Source: Methanomicrobiales archaeon
GTDB lineage: Archaea > Halobacteriota > Methanomicrobia > Methanomicrobiales > Methanospirillaceae
Reading direction: 5' to 3'
Assembly: GCA_037130095.1 (NCBI GenBank)
Contig: JBAXTR010000001.1
Span: forward strand, 1 to 26,211
Length of the DNA stretch: 26,211 nt
The notes under the pieces are model-generated. The model was not told the origin of the DNA and ran no database searches. It saw only the letters and a list, made by a program, of their open reading frames with translations. A program made the position numbers and the translations under genes. Of this stretch, positions 2,917 to 11,548 are shown piece after piece (the first letter of the stretch is position 1; each line of letters begins with the position of its first letter).

Positions 2917-3876
2917 ATGATTGTCAAAAAACCCGAAGAAGTAAAAACGAAGTTTGGATCACTCTTTTCCCGCCGGTTCCTTGTAATGGTGGACAAGGGT
3001 GCCGGTCTTGCCGAGATCATCGAGCAGTGTCATGCAAGGGGTCCTATCGAGTGGGACGCAATGAACCGCATCCGTGCAAAAGGGGCAATAGTCTCTGCCA
3101 GGGTGGAAGGGACTGAAATGCGCATGCTGGCACGTCTTGGGTTATTCCAGGCGAATTTCGGGGCTGCCGGAGAGAATATCGGGGGACAGGCCCTTGAAGG
3201 TGTCGAGGTGCAGGGGGACGAGGTTGTTACATCCTGGGCAGGTATCGCCGGAGCCGGGCTTGGCATTGCTGCCTGTCTCCCACAGGCACCGGGAGTGACA
3301 CGGGCTGAATACCCCACAGAGGATGACCTGGTGGTCGGAGGTGCGAGGGTGAACAGGGTGCGTATTTTTTCGCCGCTGTACGAGAAGGTCACGATAGGGA
3401 TCGATGACACGGACACATCAGAAAAAGGGGCGACCTGGGTCCTCGCGTTAAAATGCGGTGAACAGTGCACGGTAGAGGGTGCAGAATTTCTTAATATGAG
3501 GCTGATCCAGCTCAACCCCATGGTCCCGGAAAAAACAACCAATTGCGTGGGGTCTGCTTTAAATTTTGCCGTAAAACCCGGGTCAGTTGATGCACTTCTT
3601 GCGTATGTCCGCGATTATATCGAGGAGTTTTCCTTCAGTGACGACACGGGAATTGCCTATTACAGGGGTCTTGAATTCCCAAAAATAATGAATGGTGCCT
3701 GCCGGAGGATCAAGACCGAGATTGTAAGCCTCAGGGATGCCGAGGATATTGCGGCATCTGCCGGGATCAGGTATATTGACACGGCCGGAAGAAAGGGCAG
3801 AATTGGTGCATTAGGGTCTGTATTATGGGCCAACAGGGGCATCGAAGCGGCAGGTCTCTATGGTGAACCTTCCTGA
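2917..3876 (+). CDS. Methanogenesis marker protein 11-like paralogue (TiaS N-terminal-domain-like), function unknown
   Basis: IGIDDTDTSEKGATW and RLIQLNPMVPEKTTNC resemble the TiaS ATP-binding domain; Gly-rich AGIAGAGLGIAAC as in Mmp11; 319 aa, too short for full TiaS. Confidence 0.75.
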   Translation: MIVKKPEEVKTKFGSLFSRRFLVMVDKGAGLAEIIEQCHARGPIEWDAMNRIRAKGAIVSARVEGTEMRMLARLGLFQANFGAAGENIGGQALEGVEVQGDEVVTSWAGIAGAGLGIAACLPQAPGVTRAEYPTEDDLVVGGARVNRVRIFSPLYEKVTIGIDDTDTSEKGATWVLALKCGEQCTVEGAEFLNMRLIQLNPMVPEKTTNCVGSALNFAVKPGSVDALLAYVRDYIEEFSFSDDTGIAYYRGLEFPKIMNGACRRIKTEIVSLRDAEDIAASAGIRYIDTAGRKGRIGALGSVLWANRGIEAAGLYGEPS

Positions 3877-4753
3877 ACCGTATAATATACGGTACCCGCA
3901 GATTGTCGCTGTAGCGGATTCCGCTGGCGAACGTGTCGAGCTCATCGAATTTTTTGATTGTACCGGGGGTGCCATGTGGGCACAACACCATTATGCACAG
4001 AGCCCGCTTGTCCTTTCCGCCAGGAATATCGGACCGACCATGCGGTACCTGCTACGCCCGGGGGAGTCTGATCTCGCACTTGAAGGGTCCCATTTCCCGG
4101 CCGGAATAAGTGCGGTTTCCGTTGATGAGGATGAAATACAGGTCTCGTATGTAGGTCTTGGGGGCGGGGGTGTTGGTGCGTCCATATGCCGGTCCTATGC
4201 CCAGGGTGTTACACGGAGTATAAATGACCCTTCTGGAGGGGGAAAACGTGCTGGTTCAACAGTCTGGCTCCCAAGGCGACAGCGTGTACTGATTGGTGTG
4301 GACGATACCGACACCCCTGAACAGGGGGCTACCTGGACACTCGTCCATAATATTGCAAGGGCTGTGGAAGACCAGCAGTCCCGCTACCTTTCGCACACGA
4401 TCGTTCAGTTGTACCCTGTCCCATACCGGACGAAAAACTGTGTCAGTATTGTAGCCGAGTTTGCATCATCGGAGCCTGCCCGGCTGATCGATCATTTTGC
4501 AGGACTGCTGGACCGCTATACCCTTTCAGAGGACACCGGTATGGCAGTATACACGGGTTTTGACCCGTCAAATCTGATGGAATTTGGTTGGAAAGTGAAA
4601 CGTGGCGAAGTTTCACAGGGTATGATCCTGGATATCGATGATATCAACCTGCGGATCGTCCGGAATGGCCGTGGGAGCATTGGTGCTGTTGCTGCCATTC
4701 CATTTTATACAAAATATGAGGAGGCCCTGGCCTTATGCACGGACAGGAATTAA
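3860..4753 (+). CDS. mmp11: Methanogenesis marker protein 11
   Basis: EPYNIRYPQIVAVAD, VELIEFFDC, GLGGGGVGASICR, IGVDDTDTPEQGATW, HTIVQLYPVPYRTKNC, IGAVAAI; 297 aa; start overlaps the upstream stop. Confidence 0.8.
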   Translation: MVNLPEPYNIRYPQIVAVADSAGERVELIEFFDCTGGAMWAQHHYAQSPLVLSARNIGPTMRYLLRPGESDLALEGSHFPAGISAVSVDEDEIQVSYVGLGGGGVGASICRSYAQGVTRSINDPSGGGKRAGSTVWLPRRQRVLIGVDDTDTPEQGATWTLVHNIARAVEDQQSRYLSHTIVQLYPVPYRTKNCVSIVAEFASSEPARLIDHFAGLLDRYTLSEDTGMAVYTGFDPSNLMEFGWKVKRGEVSQGMILDIDDINLRIVRNGRGSIGAVAAIPFYTKYEEALALCTDRN

Positions 4754-9789: not shown

Positions 9790-10586
9790 TCTTTCCCCAC
9801 GAGTACAAGTATATCGGTTACGCTGACACGGACCCCTGTGGAAAACGCGTCTATTTCCTTTCAGAATACCTTATCCATAAGACTAGCGAGGGTCACGAGG
9901 TCATCCATGTGAGCACAGACCCGGATGAAAAGGGGCTGATGAGAAAGGTGATGTCAGAAGAAGTGCTCGCGTCTGGAGAAGAGGTTACCTGGTACCCGGA
10001 GAAGGTGAACATAACTAACCGGGCAGGGCTTATCAGGTTGGCAATGGAATCCGGACGGCGCTGCACTATTTTTTCCGGCCATGATGAGCACATGACCTTT
10101 GTGCTCGATCCTGACCCATCGGTCTTCCTGACTGTTCATGTCTATGATGTCAGGCCTCCCCTTCCTTCATTGTCTGCCCGGATCAGCGAGCTCGAGGCGA
10201 CCGGGCTGTTCGGGGAACTTGATATCATGTTCGAGCACCATCTTGCTGATATTTCGCAAACGGGCGCAGAAGTCTATCCCTGCAGGGCTGCGGGTTTTTC
10301 CCGGACCCTTGACGCAGACCTGATGGTCGGTGGCGAAACGATAGCAGGCTGCACGGCTAGCTCAGGGATATATCGCGAATGTTACGGGGATGAATTCACC
10401 CTGATTGACATATGTCCCATCGGTACGGTCAAAGAGGAACCATTCATCACCCGGTGCTGCCAGAAAGAGCGTGGTGGGATCGGGATGTTCAACGGAAAAT
10501 ATGGTGCCGTGGTCCACTGGGGTGCCGCTCCCTGGGATATTTTCCATTCAATCGAAGGGCTTGTGGCAGGCTGGAGGTCAGAATAA
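9786..10586 (+). CDS. Conserved Cys-rich protein of unknown function (resembles the DUF7714 family from recall)
   Basis: Start MIFPHEY at ATG 9786 overlaps the aksE stop (ATGA); 266 aa; YPCRAAG, AGC, CYG, DICP, TRCC and VVHWGA motifs; TAATG overlap with aksF. Confidence 0.75.
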   Translation: MIFPHEYKYIGYADTDPCGKRVYFLSEYLIHKTSEGHEVIHVSTDPDEKGLMRKVMSEEVLASGEEVTWYPEKVNITNRAGLIRLAMESGRRCTIFSGHDEHMTFVLDPDPSVFLTVHVYDVRPPLPSLSARISELEATGLFGELDIMFEHHLADISQTGAEVYPCRAAGFSRTLDADLMVGGETIAGCTASSGIYRECYGDEFTLIDICPIGTVKEEPFITRCCQKERGGIGMFNGKYGAVVHWGAAPWDIFHSIEGLVAGWRSE

Positions 10587-11548
10587 TGGCGAAAGTCAGG
10601 AGCATTGCAGTCGTACCCGGCGATGGTATCGGGCTGGAAGTAATACCCGTCGCGAGTGAGATGCTCAGGCATCTTCACCCGGAATACGAATTTTTCCCGG
10701 TTGAAGTGGGGTACGAGCGGTGGAAGCGGACCGGCGAGGCGATGGGTGCTGATGAACTTGGCCTGTTGAAATCGGCTGATGCCATTCTTTTTGGTGCGGT
10801 TACTACACCTCCTTCTCCCGATTACCGGAGCGTGGTGGTAAGAATTCGGAAGGCGCTCGACCTCTTTGCCAATGTGCGACCTGTAAAAGGGGAAGGGTTT
10901 GATATTACCGTAGTACGGGAGAACCTGGAAGGTCTTTATTCAGGGATCGAAGAAGTCGGGGAGTATAAGGCCACAACCTTACGCCTTCTTACCCGCCGGG
11001 AATGCGAGCGTATTGCCAGGTTTGCCTGCAGCATTACAGGACTTCGTACACTGACAATCGGTCATAAAGCGAACGTCCTCAAGTCCGATGTCTTCTTCCG
11101 GGAGATCTGCCTCCACGAAGCGTCGGTTGCAGGAGTGAATTGCAATGAGCGGTTTATTGATGCACTCTGCCTGGACGTCCTCCTCCATCCTGCATCCTAT
11201 GACGTGATTGTAACGACGAACATGTTCGGGGACATCCTGTCTGATGTGGCAGCCTACCTTGTGGGGGGACTTGGTATGCTGCCCAGTGCCAATATCGGGG
11301 AGCAATATGCCCTTTTTGAACCCGTGCACGGGAGCGCCCCCGATATTGCAGGCTATGGGGTTGCAAACCCGGTTGCCGCATTACGGAGTGCCGCGCTCCT
11401 CCTCAGGTATGCCGGGGATATTTCAGGGTCCGATGAGGTTGAACGTGCGATTCAACGGGTATTTTCAACGGGTACCAGGACCCGTGACCTGGGTGGTTCT
11501 GCTGGCACCAAAGAATTTGGCGATGCATTGATCCATGAACTTAAATAA
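10586..11548 (+). CDS. aksF: Homoisocitrate dehydrogenase AksF (isocitrate/isopropylmalate dehydrogenase family)
   Basis: IAVVPGDGIGLEV, LFANVRP, VRENLEGLY, NMFGDILSD, FEPVHGSAPDIAG; 320 aa from ATG 10586; aks context. Confidence 0.82.
   Translation: MAKVRSIAVVPGDGIGLEVIPVASEMLRHLHPEYEFFPVEVGYERWKRTGEAMGADELGLLKSADAILFGAVTTPPSPDYRSVVVRIRKALDLFANVRPVKGEGFDITVVRENLEGLYSGIEEVGEYKATTLRLLTRRECERIARFACSITGLRTLTIGHKANVLKSDVFFREICLHEASVAGVNCNERFIDALCLDVLLHPASYDVIVTTNMFGDILSDVAAYLVGGLGMLPSANIGEQYALFEPVHGSAPDIAGYGVANPVAALRSAALLLRYAGDISGSDEVERAIQRVFSTGTRTRDLGGSAGTKEFGDALIHELK

What the first reader, a model, noticed from the sequence alone, without database searches (positions are those of the whole stretch)
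2917..11548. Nine-gene translationally coupled operon linking aksADEF to five uncharacterised enzymes: candidate complete coenzyme B pathway
Seen: all eight junctions overlap (3860/3876, 4735/4753, 5700/5703, 6976/6995, 8106/8109, 9316/9326, 9786/9789, 10586/10586), and one unknown gene sits inside aksE-aksF. Established: AksA/DE/F elongate 2-oxoglutarate to 2-oxosuberate, the precursor of the 7-mercaptoheptanoyl arm of coenzyme B. To my knowledge the enzymes for decarboxylation, sulfur insertion, threonine ligation and phosphorylation are not firmly assigned. Inference: the five extra genes fit those chemistries (a TPP enzyme, Fe-S/radical SAM proteins, two ATP-using TiaS-like proteins). Alternatives are pimelate/biotin precursor supply, or the homoaconitate-related tetracarboxylate tail of methanofuran (ftr is next door).
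Basis: partly seen in the sequence, partly recalled or inferred. Interest (0 to 1): 0.88.

Follow-up and report, generated by a model that had tools for sequence, protein, structure and literature searches.

The report
Candidate complete coenzyme B biosynthesis operon
A methanogen operon joins the four known coenzyme B precursor genes to five uncharacterised enzyme genes whose families and neighbours across archaea make them testable candidates for the still-unassigned last steps of coenzyme B synthesis.

Summary
Nine + strand genes (2917-11548) overlap at all eight junctions, and the whole cluster is syntenic across Methanomicrobiales.

The genes are:
- Two methanogenesis-marker-11 paralogues with a TiaS-type kinase motif.
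- A radical SAM enzyme with extra conserved cysteines.
- An IorA-like thiamine enzyme that lacks the ferredoxin domain.
- AksA, AksD and AksE.
- A DUF7714 protein.
- AksF.

New here: DUF7714 is a distant homologue of bacterial XcbA, the Fe-S enzyme that reduces a thioaldehyde to coenzyme M, and the five invariant cysteines are shared.

Gene neighbourhoods in 10 coded families and in three distant lineages link all five extra genes to aks genes or to each other. In some lineages an acetolactate-synthase-like thiamine enzyme takes the place of the IorA-like one. In an MCR-less archaeon an IorA-like homologue follows aksADEF-like genes in a biotin operon. Both patterns fit a 2-oxosuberate decarboxylase.

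The coenzyme B reading is well supported by comparative genomics but has no biochemical test. Counter-evidence:
- Marker 11 plus a radical SAM partner also occur in a few genomes without mcrA.
- DUF7714 did not match in the M. jannaschii control, and neither it nor the IorA-like enzyme was found in one MCR-bearing family that keeps marker 11.
- The radical SAM enzyme has no obvious step.

The scan had already noted parts of this on other DNA.

The parts
2866..2916 (+). Likely operon promoter and leader: an A/T-rich TATA-like box (TTAAATAATATAT, about 2866-2878) and a GGTGA ribosome-binding motif at 2908-2912
   Evidence: Sequence read directly. The ftr stop is followed by a T-run. Metatranscriptome contigs stop at 2849 and restart at 2915. 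Inference only; no transcription start site was mapped.
2917..3876 (+). g1: divergent methanogenesis-marker-11 paralogue (319 aa) with a TiaS TCKD-type kinase motif (IGIDDTDT ... LNPxVPxKT)
   Evidence: TIGR03280 202.7 bits, below the cut-off of 255.8; PF22641 TiaS_TCKD. PDB matches to 3U02 and TiaS entries 3AMT/4RVZ. 27.6% identical to g2. Adjacent to g2 in six sampled genomes of families f1, f2, f5 and f6; missing from the f3 and f4 loci examined.
3860..4753 (+). g2: methanogenesis marker protein 11 (297 aa). Proposed ATP-dependent activation of 7-mercaptoheptanoate, ligation to threonine, and/or threonine phosphorylation.
   Evidence: TIGR03280 338.8 bits, above the cut-off. IGVDDTDT motif aligned to the TiaS-like chain 3U02. 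Adjacent to the TPP gene in 8 of 8 f7/f24 loci. Adjacent to the radical SAM gene in loci L045, L052, L063 and L065.
4735..5703 (+). g3: radical SAM enzyme (322 aa) with a canonical CxxxCxxC motif plus conserved HCP, CPG and C-terminal CxxCxxC cysteines. Role unassigned; a sulfur-handling partner is possible.
   Evidence: PF04055. Weak hits to LipS2, BioB and MSMEG_0568-type models, all far below their cut-offs. Conserved cysteines in a 12-sequence alignment. No PDB sequence match.
5700..6995 (+). g4: IorA-like thiamine-diphosphate enzyme (431 aa) without the ferredoxin domain. Proposed 2-oxosuberate decarboxylase giving 7-oxoheptanoate.
   Evidence: TIGR03336 151 bits against a cut-off of 650.9; PF02775. 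The alignment with the genome's true IorA shows loss of the 2x[4Fe-4S] tail and of about 90 aa of the middle domain, and retention of NEKxAxE, GDYALLHSG..N and four cysteines. AlphaFold model pLDDT 91, a generic PYR+PP ThDP fold. Context evidence.
6976..8109 (+). g5: AksA-like (homo)citrate synthase, 377 aa
   Evidence: PF00682 plus PF22617. It is the third HMGL-type synthase found in this genome, besides those on contigs C319 and C267.
8106..9326 (+). g6: AksD/HacA-like homoaconitase large subunit, 406 aa
   Evidence: TIGR01343 hacA_fam 466.5 bits, above its cut-off of 385.7; HacA_Meth 405.8 bits, below 550. A separate leuC-like gene lies on contig C384.
9316..9789 (+). g7: AksE/HacB-like homoaconitase small subunit, 157 aa, with a YLRT substrate loop
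   Evidence: Best PDB match is 2PKP, the M. jannaschii homoaconitase small subunit. YLRT aligns with YLRT there, against YLVY in the isopropylmalate isomerase 3VBA.
9786..10586 (+). g8: DUF7714 protein (266 aa), a distant XcbA homologue. Proposed Fe-S thioaldehyde reductase forming the thiol of 7-mercaptoheptanoate.
   Evidence: PF24830 291.9 bits; NF052538 XcbA family 76.9 bits, E 1.5e-21, below the cut-off of 150. tblastn hits Xaut_5070, the gene just upstream of phosphosulfolactate synthase (xcbB) on pXAUT01. Five cysteines (C166, C189, C210, C224, C225) are invariant in archaeal and bacterial members. Lies next to aksE in 20 of 20 loci.
10586..11548 (+). g9: AksF-like homoisocitrate-type dehydrogenase, 320 aa
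   Evidence: PF00180; TIGR02088 356 bits; AksF2_Meth 294 bits, below 540. The leuB-like paralogue on C384 is only 31% identical.
11585..11635 (+). T-rich stretch after the last gene, a possible archaeal terminator
   Evidence: Sequence read directly: CATTTTTGG and CCTTTTCAGGTTTTAA. Inference.
1931..2818 (+). ftr (formylmethanofuran:H4MPT formyltransferase). Upstream neighbour, probably a separate transcription unit.
   Evidence: PF01913/PF02741; TIGR03119 410.9 bits. A 98-nt gap separates it from g1. The adjacency is conserved only within the order.

Best explanation
The nine genes form one operon for coenzyme B (7-mercaptoheptanoylthreonine phosphate) synthesis in an uncultured Methanomicrobiales methanogen.

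Proposed steps:
1. AksA, AksD/E and AksF (g5, g6/g7, g9) elongate 2-oxoglutarate three times to 2-oxosuberate. This chemistry is established for the M. jannaschii enzymes and is inferred here by homology.
2. The ferredoxin-domain-less IorA-like thiamine enzyme (g4) decarboxylates 2-oxosuberate to 7-oxoheptanoate.
3. Sulfur is added to the aldehyde carbon. The XcbA-like Fe-S protein (g8) reduces the resulting thioaldehyde to 7-mercaptoheptanoate, as XcbA does for coenzyme M. The radical SAM enzyme (g3), which has a second set of conserved cysteines, is a possible partner in this sulfur step. Its role is the weakest inference.
4. The TiaS-kinase-like marker-11 proteins (g2, and g1 where present) use ATP to activate the carboxylate for amide formation with threonine and/or to phosphorylate the threonine hydroxyl.

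Shown: gene identities, motifs, operon structure, conserved neighbourhoods and phyletic pattern. Inferred: every substrate assignment for the five extra genes.
For: Operon:
- All eight junctions overlap, and most internal starts have SD-like motifs.
- Identical short contigs from four freshwater metatranscriptome runs cover all nine genes and bridge five junctions.

Aks identity:
- The genome has a separate leuCD-leuB-like set and two more synthases.
- The HacB YLRT loop is present.

Neighbourhood network within the phylum:
- DUF7714 lies next to aksE in 20 of 20 loci from 10 coded families.
- The TPP gene lies with aks genes in f1-f6, f10 and f14.
- Marker 11 and the TPP gene are adjacent in 8 of 8 f7/f24 loci.
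- Marker 11 and the radical SAM gene are adjacent in f14.

Distant lineages:
- Ca. Methanosuratincola: aconitase large and small subunits, an AHAS-like TPP enzyme, marker 11.
- Methanofastidiosum: marker 11, AksA, an AHAS-like TPP enzyme.
- GCA_002011125.2: marker 11, radical SAM, DUF7714 in a row.
- Locus L064: AksF, AksA, a g3-type radical SAM, a TPP enzyme, with marker 11 divergent.
- The AHAS-like enzymes score below the acetolactate synthase cut-offs. This looks like replacement of g4 by a non-orthologous decarboxylase-type enzyme.

Biotin operon: in an MCR-less family the gene order is bioB, bioW, bioU, bioF, bioD, aksADEF-like, g4-like TPP. This fits 2-oxosuberate going to a C7 product.

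Phyletic profile over 200 genomes (the window's own genome, G000, aside):
- DUF7714 is found in 92 of 93 genomes of the 10 families that carry it. Those families also have mcrA and a high-scoring AksF, and DUF7714 is found in none of the other 16 families.
- The three MCR/ACR families without canonical marker 11 (f20 has only a divergent ~135-bit paralogue), g4 (apart from one f15 match that is a true IorA) or DUF7714 (f12, f15, f20) also lack an AksF-like gene at E<=1e-55.

XcbA link: XcbA is a [2Fe-2S] enzyme reducing sulfoethanethioaldehyde to CoM (PMC9457059). Five cysteines are shared with g8.

Literature: the late CoB steps were still called unknown in May 2025 (PMC12068725).
Against: - There is no biochemical or genetic test of any of the five genes.
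- Marker 11 scoring above the family cut-off, next to a divergent radical SAM gene, occurs in genomes where no mcrA was found: four genomes of family f8, all 99% complete and three of them single contigs, and one of f17. A full module also lies on a contig whose marker-11 protein NCBI labels Ca. Undinarchaeales.
- DUF7714 does not match in the M. jannaschii control. Neither DUF7714 nor the IorA-like enzyme was found in family f16, which has MCR and marker 11. These two cannot be universal.
- Families f7, f10 and f24 have only one marker-11 copy.
- The pathway proposed from labelling studies needs no radical chemistry, so g3 has no obvious step.
- Chadwick et al. 2025 suggest MMP16 and/or L-ASST for the CoB thiol.
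- mcrA was not found in this 75.7%-complete MAG.
- The RNA evidence consists of low-depth contigs from RNA libraries, and DNA carry-over is not excluded.
- The g4 tree does not resolve whether all ferredoxin-less forms make one clade apart from IorA.
Confidence: 0.6

Rival explanations
1. Pimelate/biotin supply. The aks genes and the thiamine enzyme make 7-oxoheptanoate, and from it pimelate, for biotin. The other four genes belong to something else or merely ride along.
For: In MCR-less family f19 a g4-like enzyme closes the operon bioB-bioW-bioU-bioF-bioD-aksA-aksD-aksE-aksF-like. The elongation-plus-decarboxylation module is therefore not specific to coenzyme B.
Against: No bio gene lies in the window cluster. 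The family scans of the window genes outside the cluster returned no biotin family, and two ORFs (11713-12165 +, 12418-12855 -) matched no family at all. No bio gene lies among the called genes around marker 11 in the distant loci; the other 20-kb loci were probed only with the window's own proteins. Marker 11, the radical SAM gene and DUF7714 were not found in the f19 locus, and f19 genomes have only TiaS. DUF7714 was found only in families that have mcrA. The two uses can coexist, since 7-oxoheptanoate could feed both.
Confidence: 0.1
2. Another methanogen-linked process. Marker 11 and its radical SAM partner, perhaps with the other extra genes, modify a protein or cofactor, for example an unassigned post-translational modification of methyl-coenzyme M reductase. 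They sit with aks genes only through co-regulation.
For: The marker 11-radical SAM pair is the most widespread sub-module and often stands alone, away from aks genes. It occurs in some genomes without mcrA. TiaS itself acts on a macromolecule. A structural neighbour of the radical SAM enzyme is fused to ATP-grasp domains in bacteria.
Against: Repeated, independent linkage of marker 11 to a 2-oxoacid decarboxylase-type enzyme and to aks genes in four or more distant lineages, including non-orthologous TPP enzymes. This is hard to explain by co-regulation alone. Linkage to mcr genes was not examined systematically; the only near case noticed is in G033, where mcrA lies about 5 kb from marker 11.
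Confidence: 0.12
3. A different 2-oxoacid-derived product. The cluster makes another thiol or acid, such as a methanofuran side-chain component (ftr is the neighbour), or DUF7714 serves coenzyme M formation as XcbA does.
For: XcbA's proven substrate is the coenzyme M thioaldehyde. DUF7714 matches M. acetivorans but not M. jannaschii among the control genomes. ftr is the upstream neighbour throughout Methanomicrobiales.
Against: DUF7714 is embedded between aksE and aksF, or next to aksF, in every locus examined, never next to coenzyme M genes. ftr adjacency is absent outside the order, and a 98-nt gap with promoter-like and T-run signals separates it from g1. MMP16 is the main coenzyme M synthase in M. 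acetivorans (PMC12068725).
Confidence: 0.08

Closest known systems
AksA / AksD-AksE (HacAB) / AksF of Methanocaldococcus jannaschii (MJ0503, MJ1003, MJ1271, MJ1596; locus tags from my own knowledge)
   Same: Same four enzyme families. They are present as an extra paralogue set beside the leucine-type set. The small subunit carries the YLRT loop of the solved HacB structure 2PKP.
   Different: Here the genes are fused into one overlapping operon with five more genes. Scores lie below NCBIfam's methanogen equivalog cut-offs (HacA_Meth 405.8 against 550; HacB2 168 against 230; AksF2 294 against 540).
XcbA of Xanthobacter autotrophicus Py2 (Xaut_5070; bacterial coenzyme M pathway, PMC9457059)
   Same: Homologous over about 86% of its length. 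Five invariant cysteines are shared. Both are encoded inside a thiol-cofactor biosynthesis cluster.
   Different: About 25% identity, below the family cut-off (76.9 against 150 bits). The neighbours are aks genes, not xcbB-E. The presumed substrate is a C7 thioaldehyde acid, not sulfoethanethioaldehyde. The predicted fold (pLDDT 93) has no solved relative.
TiaS (tRNA-Ile2 agmatinylcytidine synthetase), TCKD kinase domain; PDB 3AMT, 4RVZ, 3U02
   Same: The C-terminal half of g1 and g2 carries the IGxDDTD and LNPxVPxKT motifs of the TCKD domain.
   Different: No RNA-binding domains; there is a weak TiaS_FLD match in g2 only. An unrelated N-terminal domain of about 140 aa is present. NF040849 scores 41 bits against a cut-off of 600. 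The substrate is probably a small molecule.
Indolepyruvate:ferredoxin oxidoreductase alpha subunit (IorA, TIGR03336)
   Same: PYR and PP thiamine-diphosphate domains in one chain. Four cysteines at positions conserved in IorA outside its ferredoxin domain.
   Different: No C-terminal 2x[4Fe-4S] ferredoxin domain. A shortened middle domain. No second TPP/OFOR-type subunit gene was found in the window's family scans. 151 bits against a cut-off of 650.9. The genome's real IorA is on another contig.
Sulfur-inserting radical SAM enzymes (LipS2/LipA, BioB)
   Same: Radical SAM core with CxxxCxxC, plus further conserved cysteines that could hold a second cluster.
   Different: Scores are far below every family cut-off (LipS2 53 against 270 bits). 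The cysteine pattern differs (HCP, CPG, C-terminal CxxCxxC). No PDB sequence match. Function unknown.

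Membership tests
Methanogenesis marker protein 11 (TIGR03280) | Score at or above the curated cut-off of 255.8 bits over the full model | tested here: met
   g2 scores 338.8 bits over model positions 2-290 of 292. 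g1 scores 202.7 bits, so it is a divergent paralogue and not a member by this test.
TiaS (NF040849) | Full TiaS architecture and equivalog score of at least 600 | tested here: not met
   g1 scores 41 bits and g2 gave no hit. Only the TCKD N-terminal motif region matches.
TiaS TCKD kinase domain (PF22641) | Domain match above the cut-off with the DDTD motif | tested here: met
   g1 46.4 bits and g2 51.2 bits against a cut-off of 27, though only profile positions 2-62 of 156 are matched. IGIDDTDT and IGVDDTDT are present.
IorA, indolepyruvate ferredoxin oxidoreductase alpha (TIGR03336) | Equivalog score of at least 650.9 and a C-terminal two-cluster ferredoxin domain | tested here: not met
   151.3 bits. 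The ferredoxin domain is absent in the alignment with the genome's own IorA and with a second IorA.
Thiamine-diphosphate enzymes (PF02775 and PYR domain) | PP-domain motif GDx(24-30)N and the PYR-domain catalytic Glu | tested here: met
   GDYALLHSG...N and NEKVAVE are conserved in 24 homologues. The model matches ThDP enzymes at Foldseek E about 1e-15.
XcbA family (NF052538) | Score at or above the curated cut-off of 150 bits | tested here: not met
   76.9 bits, E 1.5e-21, over model positions 36-286 of 293. This is homology, not membership of the curated subfamily.
XcbA family (NF052538) | Conserved cysteines that could bind the [2Fe-2S] cluster found in XcbA | tested here: met
   Five cysteines are invariant in 13 archaeal and 2 bacterial sequences. 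Which of them bind the cluster is not known even for XcbA.
DUF7714 (PF24830) | Pfam gathering score of 25 bits | tested here: met
   291.9 bits, full length.
Radical SAM superfamily (PF04055) | CxxxCxxC motif and a domain score above the cut-off | tested here: met
   41.9 bits against 29.5. The motif is invariant in 12 homologues.
LipS2 / LipA / BioB sulfur-inserting radical SAM enzymes | Equivalog scores (LipS2 270, LipA 310, BioB 225) | tested here: not met
   53, 25 and 24.5 bits.
Methanogen homoaconitase (HacA_Meth, HacB_Meth/HacB2_Meth) and AksF (AksF_Meth/AksF2_Meth) | NCBIfam equivalog cut-offs | tested here: not met
   405.8 against 550; 168 against 230; 294 against 540. The broader hacA_fam model (466.5 against 385.7) and LEUD_arch model (163 against 109) are met.
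Methanogen homoaconitase small subunit | YLRT substrate-specificity loop (Arg/Thr) rather than the YLVx loop of isopropylmalate isomerase. The defining role of this loop is from my own knowledge of the 2PKP work. | tested here: met
   The query's RYLRTKD aligns to PYLRTTD of 2PKP; 3VBA has RYLVYTK.
Coenzyme B biosynthesis operon (functional class) | Products convert 2-oxosuberate to 7-mercaptoheptanoylthreonine phosphate | not testable with these tools
   Needs enzyme assays or genetics. Only context and homology are available here.

The most novel reading that the evidence does not exclude
The five extra genes are the long-missing late coenzyme B enzymes: a stripped-down OFOR-type thiamine enzyme as 2-oxosuberate decarboxylase; an XcbA-like Fe-S thioaldehyde reductase, helped by a two-cluster radical SAM enzyme, as the thiol-forming system; and TiaS-kinase-like marker-11 proteins as the ATP-dependent threonine ligase and kinase. 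If so, thioaldehyde reduction would be a shared route to both methanogenic thiol cofactors in bacteria and archaea, and the TiaS kinase fold would have a small-molecule ligase branch.
Probability: 0.4. Interest if true: 0.9.

Novelty: new variant of a known kind. Interest (0 to 1): 0.8.

Why it matters
Coenzyme B is the electron donor of methyl-coenzyme M reductase, the enzyme behind nearly all biological methane formation and anaerobic methane oxidation. The steps after 2-oxosuberate have had no assigned genes since the pathway was traced by labelling, and a 2025 genetics paper still calls them unknown (PMC12068725).

This operon, with the neighbourhood network around it, names one candidate gene family for each missing chemistry. 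For two of them it supplies a specific, assayable reaction: decarboxylation of 2-oxosuberate, and reduction of a C7 thioaldehyde by an XcbA homologue.

If confirmed, the result would have four uses:
- It would complete a core cofactor pathway.
- It would offer methanogen-specific inhibitor targets.
- It would help heterologous reconstitution of MCR.
- It would improve metabolic reading of uncultured MCR-bearing archaea, some of which appear to lack the whole route.

Tried and rejected
- Literature searches for marker protein 11, TIGR03280, DUF7714, PF24830, DUF1743, 2-oxosuberate and coenzyme B biosynthesis found no functional assignment. One search was swamped by matrix metalloproteinase MMP11 and another by cobalamin papers.
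- The search for homologous proteins on g2 listed only close Methanomicrobiales relatives, so it did not help with distant context.
- Six context look-ups of distant marker-11 representatives fell on short contigs and said little.
- PDB sequence searches for g3 and g4 gave nothing.
- The fold search for g8 gave no match, so no mechanism could be read from structure.
- The fold search for g4 returned only generic ThDP enzymes and cannot tell a decarboxylase from an oxidoreductase.
- A tree of g4-like proteins with two IorA sequences was poorly resolved, and the biotin-operon member is a long branch. I do not claim a clean clade.
- Searching the supplements of the M. acetivorans HdrED-depletion transcriptome for genes near aksA (MA4614-MA4619) found no entries.
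- 'ftr indicates methanofuran synthesis' was rejected because the adjacency is order-specific and separated by promoter- and terminator-like signals.
- 'Two paralogues equal ligase plus kinase' was rejected as a general rule because three families have a single copy.

Full report
**Observation.** The window is the whole of contig C1 of a 2.38-Mb, 75.7%-complete MAG. Its nearest public relatives are uncultured Methanomicrobiales, and the closest named proteins are from Methanoregulaceae. The ORF listing gives nine + strand ORFs between 2917 and 11548. Most internal starts follow a GGAGG- or GGTGA-like motif. The chosen starts agree with homologues; for example, MIFP is invariant at the N-terminus of 24 DUF7714 proteins. 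Upstream, 98 nt separate ftr from g1 and contain a T-run, an A/T-rich TATA-like box and a GGTGA motif. T-runs also follow g9.

Four freshwater metatranscriptome runs hold short, mostly identical contigs over all nine genes. These bridge the g1/g2, g3/g4, g5/g6, g6/g7 and g8/g9 junctions, and none of the contigs listed crosses positions 2850-2914. This is weak support for one transcript. Depth is low and DNA carry-over is not excluded.

**Gene identities.**
- g2 is methanogenesis marker protein 11 (TIGR03280, 338.8 bits, above the cut-off).
- g1 is a 27.6%-identical paralogue below the cut-off. Both carry the IGxDDTD and LNPxVPxKT motifs of the TiaS TCKD kinase domain.
- g3 is a radical SAM protein with a canonical CxxxCxxC plus conserved HCP, CPG and C-terminal CxxCxxC cysteines. 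It resembles LipS2, BioB and MSMEG_0568-type enzymes only weakly.
- g4 is IorA-like. Aligned with the genome's real IorA (contig C185), it lacks the two-cluster ferredoxin tail and about 90 residues of the middle domain. It keeps the thiamine motifs and four cysteines that align with four conserved cysteines of IorA outside the ferredoxin domain. Its model (pLDDT 91) matches only generic ThDP enzymes.
- g5, g6, g7 and g9 are Aks-like. The genome has a separate leuC-leuD-leuB-like set on C384 and two further synthases. g7 has the YLRT loop of the solved M. jannaschii homoaconitase small subunit 2PKP, where the isopropylmalate isomerase 3VBA has YLVY.
- g8 is DUF7714 and, by NCBIfam, a distant member of the XcbA family (E 1.5e-21).

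**The XcbA lead.** XcbA is the last enzyme of bacterial coenzyme M synthesis. It is a [2Fe-2S] protein that reduces sulfoethanethioaldehyde to the thiol (PMC9457059). A tblastn search of g8 against plasmids hits only six records, from alkene or vinyl chloride oxidisers and a Methylocystis. In Xanthobacter Py2 the hit is Xaut_5070, directly upstream of phosphosulfolactate synthase; in Methylocystis iwaonis it lies directly downstream of it. Five cysteines are invariant across 13 archaeal DUF7714 proteins and two bacterial XcbA proteins. The g8 model is confident (pLDDT 93) but has no structural relative in the PDB.

**Synteny.**
- Within the order: the whole cluster, usually with ftr upstream, is kept in all six related MAG loci that span it (a seventh, short contig starts at g4) and in genomes of all six coded families of the order. 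g1 is absent from the f3 and f4 loci examined.
- Across the phylum sample: DUF7714 lies next to aksE in 20 of 20 loci from 10 families, and next to aksF in 19. In f10 and f14 a g4-like TPP gene joins aksA-D-E-F-DUF7714. One f14 locus also carries the radical SAM gene and marker 11.
- In f7 and f24 marker 11 and the TPP gene are adjacent in 8 of 8 loci.
- In an f14 genome marker 11 and the radical SAM gene are adjacent.

**Distant lineages.** Outside the phylum the same parts recur:
- Ca. Methanosuratincola: aconitase large and small subunits, a TPP enzyme, marker 11, then a GMC-type flavoprotein.
- Methanofastidiosum: marker 11, AksA and a TPP enzyme, with a GMC-type gene alongside.
- Assembly GCA_002011125.2: marker 11, radical SAM and DUF7714 in a row, beside an aldehyde:ferredoxin oxidoreductase and DsrE.
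- Locus L064: AksF, AksA, a g3-type radical SAM, a TPP enzyme and an Mmp4/MtxX-like gene, divergent from marker 11.

In three of these the TPP enzyme is not IorA-like. It is an acetolactate-synthase-like protein scoring below the AHAS cut-offs. A non-orthologous enzyme of the decarboxylase class in the same position is good evidence that this slot is a 2-oxoacid decarboxylation.

**The biotin operon.** In coded family f19 no mcrA, marker 11 or DUF7714 was found. There a g4-like gene closes the operon bioB-bioW-bioU-bioF-bioD-aksA-aksD-aksE-aksF-like. Biotin synthesis needs a C7 diacid, so this fits 2-oxosuberate decarboxylation to pimelate semialdehyde. This homologue lacks the four cysteines.

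**Phyletic profile (200 genomes of the phylum, the same sample each time; G000 itself is left out of the counts).**
- DUF7714: 92 of 93 genomes in the ten families f1-f7, f10, f14 and f24, and none in the other sixteen families.
- mcrA: those same families, plus f12, f15 (divergent copies), f16, f20 (several divergent copies) and 3 of 27 genomes in f8.
- g4-like at E<=1e-25: the same ten families (15 of 21 in f7), plus f19 and one true IorA.
- Marker 11 above the cut-off: the ten families, f16, seven genomes of f8 and one of f17.
- AksF-like at 294 bits or more: exactly the ten DUF7714 families. f12, f15 and f20 have no AksF-like match at E<=1e-55.

The MCR/ACR-bearing families that lack the extra genes therefore also lack a known coenzyme B gene, which makes the pattern more coherent. 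The exceptions that remain:
- Marker 11, with a divergent radical SAM neighbour, in four f8 genomes (all 99% complete, three of them single contigs) and one f17 genome without mcrA.
- The contig whose marker-11 protein is labelled Undinarchaeales.
- No DUF7714 match in the M. jannaschii control, and no DUF7714 or IorA-like enzyme found in f16.

Marker 11 is a small family, with 161 clusters at 50% identity among 1.84 billion representatives.

**Mechanism.** The route established by labelling runs from 2-oxosuberate to 7-oxoheptanoate, then 7-mercaptoheptanoate, then its threonine amide, then the phosphate. This is from my own knowledge of R. H. White's work and is summarised in part in PMC3087415. 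The best mapping is g4 for the decarboxylation, g8 for the final reduction of the thiol-forming step, and marker 11 for the two ATP-dependent steps. The last follows by analogy with TiaS, which phosphorylates a carbonyl oxygen to allow amine attack and also phosphorylates a threonine (own knowledge). The radical SAM enzyme's role is open. Its extra cysteines and its tight pairing with marker 11 suggest a two-cluster enzyme working with the ATP-dependent step or supplying sulfur. Chadwick et al. 2025 propose MMP16 and/or L-ASST for the coenzyme B thiol and state that the pathway is unknown. These systems may be alternatives in different lineages, as is the case for coenzyme M.

**Novelty and verdict.** No paper in the library assigns these genes. 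Earlier notes of this scan had flagged the marker 11-TPP pair, the marker 11-radical SAM pair and an aksE-unknown-aksF arrangement on other DNA. This is therefore a repeat sighting, here in its most complete single-operon form. I rate the coenzyme B operon reading at about 0.6. Per gene, my confidence is roughly 0.65 for g4 as decarboxylase, 0.5 for g8 as thioaldehyde reductase, 0.45 for marker 11 as ligase or kinase, and 0.25 for any specific radical SAM role. Interest is high because each assignment can be tested directly.

Noticed in passing
L039:9303-19228 (genome G030, coded family f19): An archaeal biotin operon, bioB-bioW-bioU-bioF-bioD, followed by aksA-aksD-aksE-aksF-like genes and a cysteine-less IorA-like TPP enzyme. 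It looks like a pimelate-supply module built from 2-oxoacid elongation, in a lineage where no mcrA was found.
   Followed up: partly
L064:2382-8984: A metagenome contig whose marker-11 protein NCBI labels Ca. Undinarchaeales. It carries AksF, AksA, a g3-type radical SAM, an AHAS-like TPP enzyme and an Mmp4/MtxX-like gene (TIGR03270, 173.9 bits against a cut-off of 190), divergent from marker 11. Either a non-methanogen has the module or the label is wrong. MtxX may belong to the same pathway.
   Followed up: partly
L061:9959-11146 and L062:12693-13922: A GMC-type FAD oxidoreductase sits next to marker 11 and the AHAS-like TPP enzyme in both Ca. Methanosuratincola and Methanofastidiosum. Neither DUF7714 nor the g3-type radical SAM was found in those loci, so it may be an alternative redox partner.
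   Followed up: no
L003:1444-2610 (G000 contig C63): A third, longer marker-11-like paralogue (388 aa, TIGR03280 130 bits) in the same genome, beside NAD synthesis genes (aspartate dehydrogenase, quinolinate phosphoribosyltransferase). Similar copies occur in coded families f9, f14 and f20.
   Followed up: partly
L072:9889-10809 (genome G126, coded family f15): One genome of a family with divergent mcrA, which otherwise lacks marker 11, carries a g1-type paralogue 51% identical to g1. This may be gene transfer or bin contamination.
   Followed up: no
L010:8160-10004 and L010:14091-15842: In one related MAG the g2 and g8 frames run on into the next gene (614 aa and 583 aa), and g4 is split into three frames. 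These look like assembly indels rather than true fusions.
   Followed up: no
L051:1-4220: On a Methylocystis plasmid the MSMEG_0568-type radical SAM cluster (nitrilase, acetyltransferase, AIR-synthase-like protein) lies directly beside the bacterial coenzyme M genes, including the XcbA homologue. g3 has a weak hit to that radical SAM family.
   Followed up: no
window:469-1158 (- strand): An alpha-acetolactate decarboxylase gene (PF03306, 228 bits) in a methanogen MAG, upstream of ftr. This is an unusual enzyme for this group.
   Followed up: no
window:15217-16905: A HAMP-domain SpoIIE/PP2C-type phosphatase (562 aa). Next to it are methyltransferase-domain genes (17067-18134; 19198-19836) and a pirin-like gene (18022-19119) on the same strand.
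   Followed up: no
window:21266-25605: A class I W/Y-type tRNA synthetase gene overlaps pheS by 29 nt, and pheS is 1 nt from pheT. This is a second tightly packed unit in the window. The tRNA-splicing endonuclease at 20061-21209 has duplicated domains.
   Followed up: no
whole genome G000: No mcrA match (PF02249) in this 75.7%-complete, 422-contig MAG, although all seven sampled genomes of the same family have one. The gene is most likely unassembled.
   Followed up: partly
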